Source of the DNA: Nemertoderma westbladi
Lineage: Eukaryota > Animalia > Xenacoelomorpha
Assembly (NCBI GenBank): GCA_032718475.1
Contig: JAUCBJ010005200.1
Span: 1 to 34,752, forward strand
Length of the DNA stretch: 34,752 nucleotides
Direction of reading: 5' to 3'
Below are positions 25,083 to 34,453 of the stretch, in pieces. How positions within the stretch are numbered: the first letter of the stretch is position 1; each line of letters starts with the position of its first letter. The notes under the pieces are model-generated. The model made no database searches. It was not told the DNA's origin and was given only the letters and a program-made list of their open reading frames with translations. A program made the translations under genes and the position numbers.

Positions 25083-26222
25083 ACTCATTCACTATTTCAA
25101 TATATAGGATGGGGTTTCGTTTGGGGGGTATTGTCTACTTCTAATGTAAACGGATGTGATTTACGATAATGAGTTAAAGGGGATGGATGCGAGCTAAGCA
25201 AACGCTATGAAGTGTGATTCGCTAGATTAATGACGGTATGGACTTACCGGTACTTTACGATTAGATGCGTAGAATACCCAAACAAACATCCTTACCTTGT
25301 TTCGTATCCGTAGCGCCTTGCTTATGGTATCGGTAATATTGGATAGGGACTTCAAACTACACACACTCACTCAGGATAAATATAGTTTTATATAGTTTTA
25401 GCACCAGAAATGCTTCATTACTTTCCCAACGAAAGCTCCGGATCTCCGGAATGTTTGGCGTCCGGAATGTCCGGTGTCCGATGTAATGATCGGGATTTCA
25501 TAACTTAATACTTAGATCATGTAATAATAATTTTGAACTGCAATGCAATAACTCATTAACTAATAGAAGATACTTCTAAATAAATAATAAATACAAATAA
25601 TAATACAATATACACCACCACTCGGGGTAAATGGTTACGGCTCAGTAAAATATACATATAGATGAACATAAATAATGTATTATATATAATTAGTAAAATG
25701 TGATTAATAAAATATTGATAATTAATTGTTATGGAAAGGCCGATAAGCCGGATAGAGTAGGACAAAAGAGGGCAGACCAAGGCGTGGTAACGGTTGGAGC
25801 ACTATTGGAGCACGGATCCCTGTATAGTATAATGTGATCTATTATTTAATTAATTTCAGAGATTATAAGAGGAATATTTAACTTATTCTAGAACAGTTTT
25901 TTTCTTTCAATCTACGGTATTTTCTTTGCCAAATTTAAATTTATTTTTCATTTTATTTCCTGATATTTGTTGATTCCATGACATAAATAAATATATTTCT
26001 TTTAAATAATGTTGTAAACTTATCAGCGTGTCAGCATAATGTCAGCGCAGTAGTGAAATTGAAATTGAATTGTGCGAATCAGTAGCAGTTAGTTGCGCAC
26101 ATTGACCGCAATTGAAATATGTGATGTTCAGCGAAATTGGTCGCAAATGAAATAAATATTTGTTTATTGCTTTTGTTAGAAAACACCGACACTGTAACCC
26201 GCTCCTTTCCCTTAATGTTTTA

Positions 26223-27372
26223 ATCTCGATTGCTTCAAAGCTATAACAGAATTTGAATCCCATCAGGGATCCTGTTGAGAGACTGTTACGTGGGAACCAA
26301 AATGGTTTCCGTAAATGTCGTGGGAGCTTGGAGCCCATTTTGGTACTTAGTTGAAGAGTTATCAAAAAAGAAAGACAGGCATCTAGCTGTTATCTTTGTT
26401 GACTTCTTCAAGGCCTTTGATTCAGTCTCTCGCTCACGTATGTTCAGCATACTTTCATTATATGGGATTCCTGATGAAATTATAGCAGCAATCAGATCAG
26501 TATACGATGGTTCGACAACATTTGTGACTACTGTTGATGGTAACACAGATCAATTCGACGTCTTATGGGGATTCCTCCAGGGTGACACATTTGCACCGTT
26601 CTTATTCGTAATTGTGGTTGGTTGTGTTCTACGCATGTCCTACCTTAGACCATCTTAATAGAGAAGGGGAGGGGTGATGGTAACACACCCTACTGGCACA
26701 AGAAGTAGAGGAAATACAGCAAAGGACCATACTGCTCTAGACTTTGCTGATGACGTAGGGGTACTGTCCGAATTACTAGAGGGACCCCAAAGGATCCTCT
26801 GCTCATTGGATCAGGTTTATTCTAGTGTTGGTCCTTTTGTACACTCCAAGAAGACTAGAATTATGACAAGGAAAGTTTACAGCCCTCAAGAAATGTCTGA
26901 TCTTCAGGGCATAGTCTGTCCATGGTATGGTCATGGCATGGTATTGTCTGTCCACAAGTTGGAAGTCCCGTAGAATATAACGGAACCTACTTGTATCAAT
27001 AACGATGAACACATCTCCAATCACACTATACAACCTTGGAGGTGTTTCACTGTAGTCTTAACTTGCTTGACACTTGAACGGAACCGCCTCCGCTTTGCAG
27101 GACATTGCTTTCGCCGTGAGGACCAGCCAGTGAATAATCTTGTGCTTTGGCAAGCTCATGGATTGAATTTGAATGGGGACAGCCCATGACTTTCTTTAGA
27201 CGCATCTTAAAGGACACCGGCCTTAAAGATGCGGATGATCTAGCAAATGTAATGGGTGATAGGGAGTTGTGGCGGCGCAATTTTGTCGACAAGCCGGGGC
27301 AGCATTCTCAATATATATGTAATATATATACTGCAGCTGCAATGCAGCATGCCGATAGAATAGCAGTAGTAG
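26223..27372 (+). mobile_element. 5'-truncated, degraded non-LTR retrotransposon (LINE, RTE-like), copy 1: RT fragment, C-terminus and TAG-rich tail
   Basis: RT motifs FVDFFKAFDSV and GFLQGDTFAPFLF (ORF 26275-26658) and LDFADDVG (FADD at 26743-26754); C-terminal RLRFAGHCFRR-coding DNA at ~27084-27116; frameshifts and stops; decayed tail TAGAATAGCAGTAGTAG at 27356-27372; colinear with the minus-strand copy. Only a weak TSD candidate (GTTTTAA 26217-26223 / 27376-27382). Clade assigned from motif recall only. Confidence 0.88.
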
Positions 27373-27868
27373 GAAGTTTTAAACCCACTAAACACATATT
27401 TGGTGTTTTGGGTTATTTTGCGCCATACTCAGATGTGTCATCATGATTCAAGGATGGCGTAATAATTGCATACTTAATTACTTGTGTTAGTGTCGGAGTG
27501 AACAAGGGTAATTAATAAGGCTAAGCATGAAACGGTACATAGCAATGAGACAGGAGAGGAAAACTGGGTTCTATTCCCATCTCGGCAAATTAGTATCTTG
27601 CCTCAATGTTCAATTATTAGTTTTAGAGAAAGGAGCAGATTGCAGTGACACGTTATTCTAACCAAAATAATAAACTAAAATCAATAGAACATGTTACAAT
27701 TTTATTTTTGAGAATAATCAGCTGTTAGATATTCCCCTGGAGAGGGATCTATATTGAAGGTATCTGCCCGACTCGGAACTCCAAACCGAAACCCCCCTCC
27801 CCCTACCGATTTGATAATAATACAGTATAAGTGAAAGTAATTAAGTTAAGGTACCTAAAAACTATAAC

Positions 27869-27880
27869 ATGTTAAACAAT
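27869..27880. other. Left target-site duplication of the 411-bp-unit insertion (ATGTTAAACAAT)
   Basis: Identical 12-mer at 27869-27880 and 30245-30256, abutting both ends of element-derived sequence. Confidence 0.85.
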
Positions 27881-27928
27881 TATTATAGGAAGGGATCTAG
27901 GGGTCTTAACCTCGAATGATAAGTTTAT
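27880..27928 (-). repeat. 49-bp inverted fragment of the 411-bp unit at the 5' end of the insertion
   Basis: TTATTATAGGAAGGGATCTAGGGGTCTTAACCTCGAATGATAAGTTTAT is the exact reverse complement of 28082-28130. Confidence 0.95.
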
Positions 27929-27945
27929 CGAAACGCGTACGTGGT
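27928..27945 (+). ncRNA. 3' half of a hammerhead ribozyme (truncated first copy)
   Basis: TCGAAACGCGTACGTGGT is present, but the CTGATGA and stem I 5' arm are replaced by the inverted segment. Confidence 0.8.
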
Positions 27946-28250
27946 TTGGAGGGATATGAGATATTAATTTCAAGAAAAATTACGCGATTCCTAAATTTGT
28001 ACACTACCCGGTTAAAAAGTACGCATTTGATGGGATTAGTCCTACAATTGCGCCAATAAAAGATAAGTTATTTTCGGTAAAATAAACTTATCATTCGAGG
28101 TTAAGACCCCTAGATCCCTTCCTATAATAAATGTATAATAACAAACACCTCGAAGAATACAGCTTGCCAACACATTGTTACTACCAATAATCAAAAATCA
28201 GGGGCTAATAAAATGGCAGCTGGCTTTGAAATTAATACGCCATATCTCAA

Positions 28251-28313
28251 GAACCTGTGGCCTAGTGGTTGTAGTCTCGGCTTCCACCTCGAGGTCCCCG
28301 GTTCGAATCCGAC
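28251..28313 (+). promoter_or_regulatory. tRNA-derived head with internal RNA Pol III promoter, copy 1
   Basis: A box TGGCCTAGTGG at 28258-28268 and B box GGTTCGAATCC at 28300-28310 with tRNA-like spacing; anticodon-like arm CTCGG-CTTCCAC-CTCGAG; no 3' acceptor strand. Confidence 0.88.
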
Positions 28314-28356
28314 ACCACGCTGATGAGACCCAGTAAGGTCGAAACGCGTACGTGGT
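28314..28356 (+). ncRNA. Minimal type I hammerhead ribozyme, copy 1 (predicted cleavage after A28350, GUA triplet)
   Basis: Stem I ACCACG/CGTGGT; core CTGATGA 28320-28326; stem II GACC-cagtaa-GGTC; GAAA 28341-28344; stem III reduced to palindrome ACGCGT 28344-28349; cleavage base A28350. Confidence 0.93.
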
Positions 28357-28661
28357 TTGGAGGGATATGAGATATTAATTTCAAGAAAAATTACGCGATT
28401 CCTAAATTTGTACACTACCCGGTTAAAAAGTACGCATTTGATGGGATTAGTCCTACAATTGCGCCAATAAAAGATAAGTTATTTTCGGTAAAATAAACTT
28501 ATCATTCGAGGTTAAGACCCCTAGATCCCTTCCTATAATAAATGTATAATAACAAACACCTCGAAAAATACAGCTTGCCAACACATTGTTACTACCAATA
28601 ATCAAAAATCAGGGGCTAATAAAATGGCAGCTGGCTTTGAAATTAATACGCCATATCTCAA

Positions 28662-28724
28662 GAACCTGTGGCCTAGTGGTTGTAGTCTCGGCTTCCACCT
28701 CGAGGTCCCCGGTTCGAATCCGAC
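28662..28724 (+). promoter_or_regulatory. tRNA-derived Pol III head, copy 2
   Basis: Identical to 28251-28313, shifted by 411. Confidence 0.88.
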
Positions 28725-28767
28725 ACCACGCTGATGAGACCCAGTAAGGTCGAAACGCGTACGTGGT
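28725..28767 (+). ncRNA. Minimal type I hammerhead ribozyme, copy 2 (cleavage after 28761)
   Basis: ACCACG CTGATGA GACC CAGTAA GGTC GAAA CGCG TA CGTGGT. Confidence 0.93.
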
Positions 28768-29072
28768 TTGGAGGGATATGAGATATTAATTTCAAGAAAA
28801 ATTACGCGATTCCTAAATTTGTACACTACCCGGTTAAAAAGTACGCATTTGATGGGATTAGTCCTACAATTGCGCCAATAAAAGATAAGTTATTTTCGGT
28901 AAAATAAACTTATCATTCGAGGTTAAGACCCCTAGATCCCTTCCTATAATAAATGTATAATAACAAACACCTCGAAAAATACAGCTTGCCAACACATTGT
29001 TACTACCAATAATCAAAAATCAGGGGCTAATAAAATGGCAGCTGGCTTTGAAATTAATACGCCATATCTCAA

Positions 29073-29135
29073 GAACCTGTGGCCTAGTGGTTGTAGTCTC
29101 GGCTTCCACCTCGAGGTCCCCGGTTCGAATCCGAC
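29073..29135 (+). promoter_or_regulatory. tRNA-derived Pol III head, copy 3
   Basis: Identical A and B boxes, shifted by 822. Confidence 0.88.
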
Positions 29136-29178
29136 ACCACGCTGATGAGACCCAGTAAGGTCGAAACGCGTACGTGGT
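29136..29178 (+). ncRNA. Minimal type I hammerhead ribozyme, copy 3 (cleavage after 29172)
   Basis: Same sequence as copy 1. Confidence 0.93.
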
Positions 29179-29483
29179 TTGGAGGGATATGAGATATTAA
29201 TTTCAAGAAAAATTACGCGATTCCTAAATTTGTACACTACCCGGTTAAAAAGTACGCATTTGATGGGATTAGTCCTACAATTGCGCCAATAAAAGATAAG
29301 TTATTTTCGGTAAAATAAACTTATCATTCGAGGTTAAGACCCCTAGATCCCTTCCTATAATAAATGTATAATAACAAACACCTCGAAAAATACAGCTTGC
29401 CAACACATTGTTACTACCAATAATCAAAAATCAGGGGCTAATAAAATGGCAGCTGGCTTTGAAATTAATACGCCATATCTCAA

Positions 29484-29546
29484 GAACCTGTGGCCTTGTG
29501 GTTGTAGTCTCGGCTTCCACCTCGAGGTCCCCGGTTCGAATCCGAC
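29484..29546 (+). promoter_or_regulatory. tRNA-derived Pol III head, copy 4, with an A-box point mutation
   Basis: A box reads TGGCCTTGTGG (A>T at 29497); B box intact. Confidence 0.8.
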
Positions 29547-29589
29547 ACCACGCTGATGAGACCCAGTAAGGTCGAAACGCGTACGTGGT
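29547..29589 (+). ncRNA. Minimal type I hammerhead ribozyme, copy 4 (cleavage after 29583)
   Basis: Same sequence as copy 1. Confidence 0.93.
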
Positions 29590-29894
29590 TTGGAGGGATA
29601 TGAGATATTAATTTCAAGAAAAATTACGCGATTCCTAAATTTGTACACTACCCGGTTAAAAAGTACGCATTTGATGGGATTAGTCCTACAATTGCGCCAA
29701 TAAAAGATAAGTTATTTTCGGTAAAATAAACTTATCATTCGAGGTTAAGACCCCTAGATCCCTTCCTATAATAAATGTATAATAACAAACACCTCGAAAA
29801 ATACAGCTTGCCAACACATTGTTACTACCAATAATCAAAAATCAGGGGCTAATAAAATGGCAGCTGGCTTTGAAATTAATACGCCATATCTCAA

Positions 29895-29957
29895 GAACCT
29901 GTGGCCTAGTGGTTGTAGTCTCGGCTTCCACCTCGAGGTCCCCGGTTCGAATCCGAC
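29895..29957 (+). promoter_or_regulatory. tRNA-derived Pol III head, copy 5
   Basis: Identical A and B boxes, shifted by 1644. Confidence 0.88.
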
Positions 29958-30000
29958 ACCACGCTGATGAGACCCAGTAAGGTCGAAACGCGTACGTGGT
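29958..30000 (+). ncRNA. Minimal type I hammerhead ribozyme, copy 5 (cleavage after 29994)
   Basis: Same sequence as copy 1. Confidence 0.93.
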
Positions 30001-30244
30001 TTGGAGGGATATGAGATATTAATTTCAAGAAAAATTACGCGATTCCTAAATTTGTACACTACCCGGTTAAAAAGTACGCATTTGATGGGATTAGTCCTAC
30101 AATTGCGCCAATAAAAGATAAGTTATTTTCGGTAAAATAAACTTATCATTCGAGGTTAAGACCCCTAGATCCCTTCCTATAATAAATGTATAATAACAAA
30201 CACCTCGAAAAATACAGCTTGCCAACACATTGTTACTACCAATA

Positions 30245-30256
30245 ATGTTAAACAAT
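30245..30256. other. Right target-site duplication of the 411-bp-unit insertion (ATGTTAAACAAT)
   Basis: The unit sequence (...CCAATAAT, normally followed by CAAAAATC) stops at 30246 and runs into the 12-mer also found at 27869-27880, with a 2-nt overlap. Confidence 0.85.
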
Positions 30257-31031: not shown

Positions 31032-32751
31032 CTACTACTACTAGGATCGGCATGCTGCATTGCCGCTGCATTTTTAAGAATGCTGTGCCGGCTTGTCGAC
31101 AAAATTGCGCCGCCACAACTCCCTATCACCCATGACATTTGCTAGATCATCCGCATCTTCAAGGCCTTTAAGATGCGTCCCAAGAAAGTCATGGGCTGTC
31201 TACCATGCTTATTCACTCCATGAGGCTGCCAAAGTACAAGATTATGTACTGGCTGGTCCTCACGGCGAAAGCAATGTCCTGCAAAGCGGAGGCGATTTTG
31301 TTCTAGTGTCAAGCTTGGGGGAACCAATGAGACACCTCCAATGTTATATAGTGCCTGGATGGAGATGTGTGCATTGTACTTGACACAATGAACCCGGCGT
31401 AGCATTCTTGTGAATGTGCCATCCAGAGATTTGGTGTCCTCAGCAGTTAGAGCCCAGCATGGACTCCCATAGAGGAGTACTGGAACTACTGCTGCTCTAA
31501 ATAATCGGACCTTAAGTTTCCGAATAATTCTCGGTGACTTCCAAATCCTGGAAAGCCTATTCAAGGTTGCCCATGCCTTTCCCTTACGTATTCGAAGGTC
31601 CTCACCTGACTTCCGGATCCATGATCCCAGGTAACAGAAGTCGTCCACATGCTCAAGCATACCATCCTTTTAGCTTATGCTCATCCGATCAGAGACTTGC
31701 TGAGGACTTTCAAAGTTAACTGTCAAAATTTTGGTCTTTCTGGCGTTAATAAAAAGACCAACACTAGAAGCAGCATGTTCTAATTAACTGAGGAGCCGTT
31801 GGGTTTCCTCTAGTGATTCTGAGAGTACTCCTAAGTCTTCAGCAAAGTCTAGTTCAGTTAGGTACTTGGCAGGATTTCCTCGACTTCTGGAGCCAGTAGG
31901 TGGAGGACAATTATGAACAAGAATGGTGCAAGTGTGTCTCCATGGAGGACGCCCCATAACACTTCAAATGGTTCTGTGTCACCATCAACAGTAGACACAA
32001 ATGTTGTCGAACCATCGTATACTGATCTGATTGCTGCAATAATTTCATCAGGAATCCCATATAATGAAAGTATGCTGAACATACGTGAGCGGGAGACTGA
32101 ATCAAAGGCCTTGAAGAAGTCAACAAAGATAACAGCCAGATGCATGTCTTTCTTTTTTGATAACTCTTCAATTATCCTTCTAAGTGCCAAAATGGGCTCC
32201 ATGGTCCCACGACCTTTACGGAACCCATTCTGATTTCCACGGAGCAGTCTCTCAATGGGATCCCTGATGCGATTTAATATAATTCTATTGTATAGCTTTG
32301 CAGCAATCGAGATCAATGAGATTCCCCGAAAAGAACCATAGAGTGTTAGGTTGCCCTTCTTGGGAACTGGCACCAACTTATTTGTTTTAATTTCTTGTGG
32401 GACTCTTGTTGTTCGGTACATGTCTACTATGATAGGATTGAGCGATGAGATATGATGGGCTTTAAACACTCAGGTATTTTAAAGACCTCAGGGGGAACAC
32501 CATCTTCTCCACTGGCACGATTGGTCTTAATGCTCTTTGCAGCAACCTTCACTTCTGCAAAGGAGATATCGCCAATGGGAATATCTGGGAGTACAGACTC
32601 AGACACTTTTACTTCTATAAAGTTATCAGCAATACCCTGTCATTATTGAGGAGCTTTTCAAAGTGGGCCTTCCAACCATTGAGGCGATCGGCTGGTGATT
32701 CAGCCTTAACCTTGGTGGTTGGTTGGCTTTTCCGCCCAGTAAGAATATATA
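31032..32751 (-). mobile_element. 5'-truncated non-LTR retrotransposon (LINE, RTE-like), copy 2, with (TAG)4 tail and 10-bp TSD
   Basis: Tail (CTA)4 on + at 31032-31043; TACTATAGAA duplicated at 31022-31031 and 32752-32761; RT-coding fragments in between. Confidence 0.92.
31142..32745 (-). pseudogene. Fragmented ORF2 reverse transcriptase of LINE copy 2
   Basis: LVPVPKKGNL-FRGISLISIAAKLY-NQNGFRKGRGT-FVDFFKAFDSV-GVLHGDTLAPFLF (ORF 31858-32469); catalytic motif degraded to DFAED (31835-31849); VDDFCYLGSW, LLYGSPCWAL and RLRFAGHCFRR (ORF 31142-31660); several frameshifts and a deletion near 31903; no endonuclease domain retained. Confidence 0.9.
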
Positions 32752-33313
32752 TACTATAGAAACCAGAATCATAGTAGTCACTTACACGTACATTATATGA
32801 TAAATTACAAGCGAGAACAAGATAATATAAGTATCCTGGCAATATTTACAAAAAAACTTGAGAATTGGGCAATGATGCTGGCGCCTGGTTGCTTGCAGCC
32901 CATAAAACAGGCAGCAGCAGCATGATTAATGTTGTTTACCCAAACTGGAAGTAATTGCAGTATTTACTACTTTGAACACTTGCAGTATTGCATTAATACA
33001 GAACATACAATAACTGTAATAAGATTAATAAAAATAGTTCCTGATGTACCGGTGCGTACAAACGCAAACACAATTGTCTAAGATAACATATTTAGATTAA
33101 TATTTACTTACGTTACAGATATACATATAATTTACTTAAATTGTTAAACAATCACAGTAGGTATATACTACCGGTAGTTATTTTTTTCACAGTTATAATG
33201 TTAAACAATCGCAGTTTAATCTCCATGTACAGTTTACCAGTGCCGGATTAACTTTACCAGCGCAGTTTACCTATCGTATCGTTTATGTAACTGTTATGAT
33301 TCTATTATTATAT

Positions 33314-34453
33314 TGTTCGTGTTTCAGTGGATCCTTCGTGTCGCCTCCGGGTTCGTGTTTCAGTGGATCCTTCGTGTCGCCTCCGGTGTTCGTGTTTCAG
33401 TGGATCCTTCGTGTCGCCTCCGGTGTTCGTGTTTCAGTGGATCCTTCGGTCGCCTCCGGTTCGTGTTTCAGTGGATCCCTTGGGTCGCCTCCGGTGTTCG
33501 TGTTTCAGTGGATCCCTTGGGTCGCCTCCGGTGTTCGTGTTTCAGTGGATCCCTTCGGGTCGCCTCCGGTGTTCGTATTTCAGTGGATCCCTTGGGTCGC
33601 CTCTGGTGTTCGTGTTTCAGTGGATCCCTCGGTTCGCCTCCGGTGTTCGTGTTTCAGTGGATCCTTCGGGTCGCCTCCGGTGTTCGTGTTTCAGTGGATC
33701 CCTTGGGTCGCCTCCGGTGTTCGTGTTTCAGTGGATCCTTCGGGTCGCCTCTGGTGTTCGTGTTTCAGTGGATCCCTTCGGGTCGCCTCCGGTGTTCGTG
33801 TTTCAGTGGATCCCTTGGGTCGCCTCCGGTGTTCGTGTTTCAGTGGATCCTTCGGGTCGCCTCCTGGTGTTCGTGTTTCAGTGGATCCTTCGGGTCGCCT
33901 CCGGTGTTCGTGTTTCAGTGGATCCCTTGGGTCGCCTCCGGTGTTCGTGTTTCAGTGGATCCTTCGGGTCGCCTCCGGTGTTCGTGTTTCAGTGGATCCC
34001 TTGGGTCGCCTCCGGTGTTCGTGTTTCAGTGGATCCCTTCGGGTCGCCTCCGGTGTTCGTGTTTCAGTGGATCCTTCGGGTCGCCTCCGGTGTTCGTGTT
34101 TCAGTGGATCCCTTCGGGTCGCCTCCGGTGTTCGTGTTTCAGTGGATCCTTCGGGTCGCCTCTGGTGTTCGTGTTTCAGTGGATCCCTTGGGTCGCCTCC
34201 GGTGTTCGTGTTTCAGTGGATCCCTTGGGTCGCCTCCGGTGTTCGTGTTTCAGTGGATCCTTCGGGTCGCCTCCTGGTGTTCGTGTTTCAGTGGATCCCT
34301 TCGGGTCGCCTCCGGTGTTCGTGTTTCAGTGGATCCTTCGGGTCGCCTCCGGTGTTCGTGTTTCAGTGGATCCCTTCGGGTCGCCTCCGGTGTTCGTGTT
34401 TCAGTGGATCCCTTGGGTCGCCTCCGGTGTTCGTGTTTCAGTGGATCCTTCGT
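33314..34453. repeat. 37-bp GC-rich minisatellite, ~31 copies: GTTCGTGTTTCAGTGGATCC(TTCG/CTTG/CTTCG)GGTCGCCTCCGGT
   Basis: Period 37 (e.g. 33388 to 33425) with 35-38 bp variants; one GGATCC per unit; sharp borders with AT-rich flanks. Confidence 0.97.

What the first reader, a model, noticed from the sequence alone, without database searches (positions are those of the whole stretch)
27928..30246. 411-bp tandem unit = tRNA-derived Pol III promoter fused to a hammerhead ribozyme (candidate new SINE-retrozyme family)
Seen: every unit has A box TGGCCTAGTGG and B box GGTTCGAATCC, followed 3 nt later by a complete hammerhead (ACCACG-CTGATGA-GACC cagtaa GGTC-GAAA-CGCG-TA-CGTGGT), with no credible ORF. 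Known: tandem non-coding repeats carrying type I hammerheads are non-LTR retrozymes (newt satellite 2, Dolichopoda pDo500, Schistosoma SM-alpha, the last also tRNA/Pol III-related), and some give circular RNAs. Inference: this is a self-transcribing, self-processing, viroid-like retroelement giving 411-nt monomers cut at 28350/28761/29172/29583/29994. I do not recognise the family; novelty is unverified.
Basis: partly seen in the sequence, partly recalled or inferred. Interest (0 to 1): 0.92.

Follow-up and report, generated by a model that had tools for sequence, protein, structure and literature searches.

The report
Freshly inserted self-cutting RNA repeat
This is a recent insertion of about six near-identical copies of an abundant non-coding repeat that carries a tRNA-like promoter in front of a hammerhead self-cutting RNA motif, a design already known from blood flukes, and its ends suggest it was likely copied round and round from one small RNA ring by a Penelope-type reverse transcriptase.

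Summary
Observation confirmed. The array has 5.6 copies of a 411-bp unit with two mismatches in all; five copies hold a tRNA-like A/B-box head and a canonical type I hammerhead, with no coding frame. This is a non-LTR retrozyme of the Schistosoma SM-alpha design (Pol III promoter directly before the ribozyme, in tandem), so not a new kind. Contigs in two public runs leave the window's sequence exactly at the duplication's end, so the insertion is likely polymorphic; depth suggests roughly 2-4 x 10^4 family copies. Best model: Pol III read-through, cleavage as a paired hammerhead (helix III is only 2 bp), a 411-nt circle, rolling-circle reverse transcription by a Penelope-like element. Transcription, cleavage, circles and the partner element are all untested; a T4 run could stop Pol III inside the unit. 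This scan noted both the promoter design and the two-armed insertion before, on other DNA.

The parts
27869..27880 (.). Left copy of the 12-bp target-site duplication (ATGTTAAACAAT)
   Evidence: contigs of X1 and X3 stop matching exactly at 27880 and run on with other sequence (table 8)
27880..27928 (-). 49-nt inverted arm: reverse complement of unit positions 143-191, head-to-head with the array; first base shared with the duplication, last with the forward arm
   Evidence: its start is the best match on the unit to the duplication (8 of 12 nt, 1 of 411 positions)
27928..30246 (+). Forward arm: 5.6 tandem copies of the 411-bp unit, from unit position 400 to 250-252; no poly(A) tail
28251..28315 (+). 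tRNA-like head with A box (28258-28268) and B box (28300-28310); repeats every 411 bp; predicted type 2 Pol III promoter, not a foldable tRNA
   Evidence: tRNA profile HMM E 2.9e-4; pattern test; ARAGORN none; covariance model E 0.64
28314..28356 (+). Type I hammerhead: helix I 6 bp (plus predicted 4-5 bp extension using the end of the B box), helix II 4 bp, helix III 2 bp inside a 6-nt palindrome; predicted cut after 28350; further copies at 28725, 29136, 29547, 29958
28351..28761 (+). Predicted 411-nt monomer/circle, cut to cut (also 27940-28350, 28762-29172, 29173-29583, 29584-29994); 40% GC; long arm pairs unit ~9-35 with ~283-310
   Evidence: (circular MFE -97.1 kcal/mol, z -2.6, 0 of 60 shuffles as stable)
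28482..28485 (+). The only run of four or more T on the + strand of the unit (positions 132-135; repeats every 411 bp): possible Pol III terminator that must be read through
30245..30256 (.). Right copy of the 12-bp target-site duplication

Best explanation
The array is a block of 5.6 near-identical non-coding units, each with a tRNA-like head directly before a type I hammerhead motif, bounded by a 12-bp duplication and a short inverted arm; it is likely one recent retrotransposition of an SM-alpha-type non-LTR retrozyme, copied from a single circular RNA by a Penelope-like reverse transcriptase. Steps: (1) inferred: Pol III starts near 28251 from the internal A/B boxes and reads through the single T4 run into the next unit; (2) predicted: neighbouring hammerheads cut after 28350, 28761 etc., most likely paired through the palindromic helix III, releasing 411-nt monomers with the promoter at their 3' end; (3) inferred from coral, mussel and axolotl retrozymes: a host RtcB-type ligase closes the ring; (4) inferred from the junctions: an endonuclease makes a staggered cut 12 nt apart in AT-rich DNA, one end primes at unit position ~250 and the enzyme rolls 5.6 times round the ring, the other end anneals at unit position ~191 and makes the 49-nt inverted arm; (5) follows from the layout: because the product is a tandem, every copy again has a promoter upstream of a complete cut-to-cut unit.
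For: Shown in sequence: duplication at both junctions (a common string of 12 nt or more arose in 2 of 19,589 random flank pairs); inverted arm starting at the best target match of 411 positions; no tail; 3' end mid-unit, 250 nt from the cut site; 2 mismatches in 2319 bp, each in one copy only. All copies share four letters (28027, 28184, 28239, 28299) that are under 0.6% of depth in run X1, as a single template would give. In 2 of 4 runs laid (X1, X3; two studies) a single-copy-depth contig (718 and 704 nt) matches 27693-27880 and continues for 530 and 516 nt with sequence that is not the element. Depth over the unit is 20,000-38,000 times the flank in X1 and X3 (rough). Internal deletions and diverged copies exist in the family (tables 5 and 8). 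Helix sizes 6/4/2 with a palindromic loop match the canonical metazoan hammerhead said to work as a dimer (PMC4209133 passages). Circle fold is more stable than 60 of 60 shuffles with helices I and II formed. Inverted 5' copies, head-to-head arms and 8-10 bp duplications are described for Penelope elements (PMC3846280 passages; PMC8557442 passages). No 3'-end similarity with the two neighbouring LINE fragments.
Against: No Penelope element was found: there is none in the window and no genome is held. Duplications with 5' inversion also arise by twin priming in L1 (PMC2246262 passages), so the footprint is not unique to Penelope. The forward priming site has only 2 nt of microhomology, not above chance (37 of 411 positions). 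The 12-mer is AT-rich and occurs a third time at 33198. The T4 run could end most Pol III transcripts at about 235 nt, and scarcity of T runs on + is not significant (P 0.58). The four shared letters may mark a subfamily common in the window's own individual, which X1 and X3 need not be. What follows 27880 in X1 and X3 was not seen. Li et al. favour local amplification for tandem retrozymes and found cleavage in only 1 of 9 dimers tested. Rfam scores below threshold.
Confidence: 0.62

Rival explanations
1. A monomer or dimer was retrotransposed here (same duplication and inversion) and grew to 5.6 copies afterwards by unequal crossing-over or slippage, as a local minisatellite; no rolling circle is needed.
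For: Model proposed in bioRxiv 10.64898/2026.07.22.740005 (Discussion). The locus lies 2.8 kb from a 25-kb satellite. Shared letters in all copies fit this too.
Against: Each of the 2 mutations is in one copy only; the site appears to lack the element altogether in X1 and X3, which leaves little time for expansion.
Confidence: 0.15
2. Same RNA cycle, but mobilised by a LINE (AP-endonuclease type) through target-primed reverse transcription with twin priming: a tail-less, hammerhead-bearing SINE.
For: 12-bp duplication and 5' inversion are also L1-type products; LINE-type RT fragments flank the locus on both sides.
Against: No poly(A) or short-repeat tail; 3' end mid-unit; local alignment of the unit with the last 300 nt of both flanking LINEs scored 16-21, within shuffled scores (mean 18, max 24-27).
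Confidence: 0.12
3. The unit is the terminal repeat (pLTR) of an autonomous Penelope-like element, seen here as a truncated tandem; the tRNA-like boxes are a passenger and transcription is by read-through from other promoters.
For: 24 of 57 Xenopus retrozyme families match Repbase elements, 21 of those 22 being PLEs; a review states that retrozymes do not seem to carry promoters (PMC7761336 passages); T4 inside the unit.
Against: The hammerhead has canonical helix sizes, not the long helix II and short helix I described for Schistosoma PLE minimal hammerheads; a tRNA profile aligns over 62 nt with correct box spacing; no listed A- or B-box core difference in the family majority among the 40 rows shown (15 rows not shown).
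Confidence: 0.09
4. The copy number or homogeneity is an assembly artefact.
For: Near-identical tandem copies can be collapsed or expanded; no read spanning the array was seen.
Against: Two private substitutions, coherent junctions, and tandem-type joints in public contigs. The unit and its junctions would remain real.
Confidence: 0.02

Closest known systems
Schistosoma SM-alpha / Sj-alpha SINE-like hammerhead retroposons (review passages PMC6765202; PMC2770079; the 1998 primary paper was not held)
   Same: Promoter followed by a hammerhead, tandem copies, apparently Pol III-transcribed, promoter left at the 3' end of the cut monomer, tRNA-related head, tens of thousands of copies.
   Different: Sequence homology not tested. 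SM-alpha is linked to tRNA-Gln-TTG-like sequence; here the anticodon position reads TCC (sequence). A duplication plus inverted arm was not mentioned in the passages seen.
Metazoan non-LTR retrozymes of coral, mussel and axolotl (PMC7229834, parts 2-4 of 6 and passages)
   Same: Tandem 150-450 bp units with a type I hammerhead, GC under 50%, no coding frame, duplications longer than 4 bp, self-paired predicted circle; rolling-circle reverse transcription by a PLE proposed.
   Different: Those are described as lacking promoters (PMC7761336), whereas this unit has A/B boxes; circles and cleavage were shown there and not here.
Penelope-like elements and their pLTR-derived non-autonomous forms (PMC3846280, PMC8557442, PMC4209133 passages; bioRxiv 10.64898/2026.07.22.740005 parts 1-3 of 5)
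   Same: Tandem plus inverted 5' copy, head-to-head arms, duplications of 8-10 bp, type I hammerhead.
   Different: No RT or GIY-YIG frame; canonical rather than minimal hammerhead; tRNA-like rather than TATA/Inr-type promoter; no homology test to a host PLE was possible.
Cassandra, Helenus and Ajax (small-RNA-promoter TRIMs; PMC10886601 abstract start and passages)
   Same: Non-autonomous retroelements that captured a Pol III-type promoter and can form tandem arrays.
   Different: They are LTR-type elements; the paper mentions hammerheads only in a reference.

Membership tests
Metazoan non-LTR retrozyme | Tandem unit of 150-450 bp, GC under 50% | tested here: met
   411 bp, 5.6 copies; 40% GC
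Metazoan non-LTR retrozyme | Type I hammerhead in each unit | tested here: met
   5 of 5 complete units; descriptor 0 of 20,000 shuffles; Rfam HH9 E 6.7e-5 but below gathering score
Metazoan non-LTR retrozyme | No protein-coding frame | tested here: met
   Longest stop-to-stop frame 95 aa; 3 unit frames scanned, 0 above a Pfam cut-off, one hit at E 0.0096 below cut-off
Metazoan non-LTR retrozyme | Target-site duplication longer than 4 bp when present | tested here: met
   12 bp at both junctions
Metazoan non-LTR retrozyme | Self-cleavage, and linear plus circular monomer RNA in vivo | not testable with these tools
   Fold prediction only
SM-alpha-type Pol III hammerhead retroposon | tRNA-like internal promoter directly 5' of the hammerhead, in tandem | tested here: met
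SM-alpha-type Pol III hammerhead retroposon | Transcription by Pol III | not testable with these tools
   One T4 run per unit is a possible obstacle
SM-alpha-type Pol III hammerhead retroposon | Sequence homology to SM-alpha (family membership proper) | not tested
   No SM-alpha sequence or repeat library was available from the tools
Classical tRNA-derived SINE | tRNA-like head at the 5' end and an A-rich or LINE-shared 3' tail | tested here: not met
   Head lies at the 3' end of the cut unit; no tail; no similarity to the flanking LINE ends
Autonomous Penelope-like element (pLTR) | RT plus GIY-YIG frame adjoining the repeat | tested here: not met
   Both junctions lead through the duplication into unrelated flank; nearby RT fragments are 1.3-1.6 kb away. 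Tested for this locus only
Autonomous Penelope-like element (pLTR) | Tandem plus inverted 5'-truncated copy, flanked by a duplication | tested here: met
   against PMC3846280 passages; not unique to PLEs
Autonomous Penelope-like element (pLTR) | Homology of the unit to a host PLE terminus | not testable with these tools
   No genome held
Viroid-like replicating RNA | Ribozyme in both polarities | tested here: not met
   No hammerhead core on the minus strand of the unit; other ribozyme classes covered only by Rfam

The most novel reading that the evidence does not exclude
Pol III-promoter retrozymes are not a blood-fluke oddity but a widespread, unclassified class of 'Penelope SINEs': tRNA-headed, self-cutting RNA rings that are copied by rolling-circle, twin-primed reverse transcription. 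This family would be an active, tens-of-thousands-copy example with polymorphic insertions, naming both the polymerase that makes animal retrozyme circles and the footprint of the enzyme that reinserts them.
Probability: 0.4. Interest if true: 0.65.

Novelty: new member of a known kind. Interest (0 to 1): 0.42.

Why it matters
Two steps of the animal retrozyme cycle are stated as open in the papers read: what transcribes them (a review says they seem to lack promoters) and what reinserts them (PLEs proposed from co-occurrence and Xenopus homology). This locus offers a candidate internal promoter and an almost unmutated, probably polymorphic insertion whose junctions record the priming sites, so both steps become testable in one young family. 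The parts themselves are known.

Tried and rejected
No RNA holder listed for the unit (12 runs listed, 7 hold part of it, 0 on record as RNA). Run X4 (RNA is a guess, another organism label) has one 441-nt contig that is a full turn of the unit plus 30 nt; tandem DNA would give the same, so it is not used as evidence. Whole-genome work was impossible. Functional tRNA rejected: ARAGORN 0, Rfam tRNA no hit at E 10, own covariance model E 0.64; the profiles were built from 29 of 52 phage and bacterial tRNAs (short variable arm) found in fetched loci. Covariation could not be tested: no set of diverged full-length copies was obtained. T-run depletion as a sign of Pol III selection: not significant (T runs P 0.58; A-run excess P 0.03). 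Co-folding two hammerheads did not print the double-hammerhead structure, so only the palindrome duplex energy is cited. Rfam microRNA and sRNA hits at E 0.16-5 are chance. Three papers were not held.

Full report
OBSERVATION. The array is real: 27928-30246, period 411, 5.6 copies, with 2 mismatches in 2319 positions, each private to one copy. Five units hold an A box, a B box and, 3 nt later, a 43-nt type I hammerhead; predicted cuts fall after 28350, 28761, 29172, 29583 and 29994. The fourth A box has one substitution. A structural descriptor for type I hammerheads hits these five places only and 0 of 20,000 shuffled units. Rfam gives HH9 at 26.2 bits, E 6.7e-5, under its gathering score. 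The A+B box pattern (consensus recalled) gives 4 matches and none in 100 shuffles. A profile from 29 tRNAs aligns over 62 nt at E 2.9e-4, while ARAGORN, Rfam and a structure-aware model do not call a tRNA: tRNA-derived sequence whose stems have decayed. No unit frame exceeds 95 aa or reaches a Pfam cut-off.

The element runs 27880-30246 and is bounded by a 12-bp direct repeat (27869-27880 and 30245-30256); random 30-nt flank pairs share 12 nt or more in 2 of 19,589 draws, though the 12-mer also occurs at 33198. The left 49 nt are the reverse complement of unit positions 143-191, so both outer ends are element 3' ends and the arms meet head-to-head with one shared base. The inverted arm starts where the unit best matches the duplication: 8 of 12 nt, reached by 1 of 411 positions (2, 1, 1 and 3 of 411 for primer lengths 8, 10, 12, 14). 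The forward arm ends at unit position 250-252, in an A-rich stretch predicted unpaired, with only 2 nt of microhomology (37 of 411, not significant) and no tail.

FAMILY EVIDENCE. No genome is held. Of 12 runs listed, 7 in 5 studies hold part of the unit, 4 with half the words or more. Four runs were laid on 27500-28370. Median summed depth over the unit is 20,000-38,000 times the flank depth in X1 and X3; the tool warns that this is no copy number, so it is read only as 'of the order of 10^4'. In both runs a contig of single-copy depth matches 27693-27880 and then continues for 530 and 516 nt with sequence that is not the element: these samples likely lack the insertion. Their continuation was not seen. 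Four positions where every copy of this array agrees are under 0.6% of depth in X1, as expected from one template, though a subfamily private to the window's individual would look the same. The host is probably an animal (inference from hammerhead type, LINEs and satellites); it was not identified.

RNA ANATOMY. Helix I is 6 bp, helix II 4 bp, helix III 2 bp with a 2-nt loop inside a perfect 6-nt palindrome. In the predicted 411-nt circle helices I and II form with probability 0.76-1.0 and helix III with 0; the palindrome pairs with a second copy at -9.5 kcal/mol. This is the canonical metazoan layout described as active in dimers, not the minimal form described for Schistosoma PLEs (PMC4209133 passages). 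The circle folds at -97.1 kcal/mol, z -2.6, with 0 of 60 shuffles as stable (linear z -2.85). The hammerhead alone is no more stable than shuffles (z -0.58). The + strand has one T4 run per unit and the minus strand seven runs of four or more; the first is a possible Pol III stop about 235 nt after the start (Pol III ending at T4 is recalled knowledge), and the asymmetry is weak statistically. There is no minus-strand hammerhead.

MECHANISM. Shown: layout, duplication, inversion, homogeneity, abundance. Inferred: Pol III initiation and read-through; paired-hammerhead cleavage; ligation to a ring (RtcB circularises axolotl and mussel monomers in vitro, PMC7229834); a staggered cut, rolling-circle copying from one end and second priming from the other. 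The tandem product restores a promoter upstream of each complete unit, the logic given for SM-alpha (PMC6765202 passages). A Penelope-like partner is preferred because inverted 5' copies, head-to-head arms and 8-10 bp duplications are typical of them, retrozymes co-occur and share termini with them, and the unit shares nothing with the flanking LINE ends. It is not shown: L1 twin priming gives a similar footprint, and post-insertion expansion is the model favoured by Li et al., who also saw cleavage in only 1 of 9 dimers.

COMPARISON AND NOVELTY. It meets every testable feature of a non-LTR retrozyme and works like SM-alpha; membership of SM-alpha by descent was not tested. It is not a classical tailed SINE, not an autonomous PLE at this locus, and not viroid-like by the two-polarity test. 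Searches for the promoter-plus-hammerhead design returned only Schistosoma material and unrelated papers; searches for retrozyme insertion junctions returned no junction-level study, within a library that lacks most subscription papers and without Repbase or Dfam. This scan's earlier notes describe a tRNA-promoter retrozyme (e1-9924037) and two-armed insertions with a 13-bp duplication (e1-8669225) in other genomes; I had formed the same reading before seeing them, did not check them, and do not count them as support. No look-alike sequence was on record.

PAPERS SEEN. bioRxiv 10.64898/2026.07.22.740005: parts 1-3 of 5, supplements not seen, and they may list related families. PMC7229834: passages and parts 2-4 of 6. 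Passages only: PMC6765202, PMC2770079, PMC8557442, PMC4209133, PMC5680766, PMC7761336, PMC10886601, PMC3846280, PMC8969392, PMC2246262. The 1998 SM-alpha paper was not held; it is cited through the review.

VERDICT. A real, young, probably active family; a new member of a known kind with an unusually clean insertion record. Interest 0.42.

Noticed in passing
window 69-25086: A 25-kb satellite with a 21-bp unit (about 1,190 copies, higher-order period 104) and strong strand skew; the retrozyme sits 2.8 kb from its edge.
   Followed up: no
window 33314-34452: A 37-bp GC-rich minisatellite, 30.7 copies, giving spurious 386-431 aa open frames.
   Followed up: no
window 26220-27372 (+) and 31032-32650 (-): Two decayed, related LINE-type reverse transcriptase fragments (76-88% alike) face each other across the array and end in short TAG-type repeats; RVT_1 E 2e-6 and 3e-18. 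Clade not determined.
   Followed up: partly
window 27628-27727: A fragment of another very abundant repeat, about 80-85% like its relatives, depth up to about 9,000 times the flank in X1; unclassified.
   Followed up: no
run X5 against X1 and X3: Under the same organism label, the unit is about 24-fold rarer relative to the neighbouring repeat in X5 (ratio 0.14 against 3.3-3.5) and shows other variants: a recent burst in some populations, a different species, or a library effect.
   Followed up: no
window 28190-28219 (unit ~251-280): Depth dips in X1, X3 and X5 right where this insertion ends, in an A-rich stretch predicted unpaired: possibly a preferred priming site, or just a variable spot.
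   Followed up: partly
window 28309-28313 with 28357-28361: The last bases of the B box region are predicted to extend hammerhead helix I, so promoter and ribozyme overlap.
   Followed up: partly
L009:1001-1050 and L020:1001-1049: Phage contigs with a hammerhead core and a perfect helix II directly after a tRNA-Gln gene (L009) or a T-arm-like 3' end (L020); tRNA-linked phage hammerheads are recalled as known.
   Followed up: no
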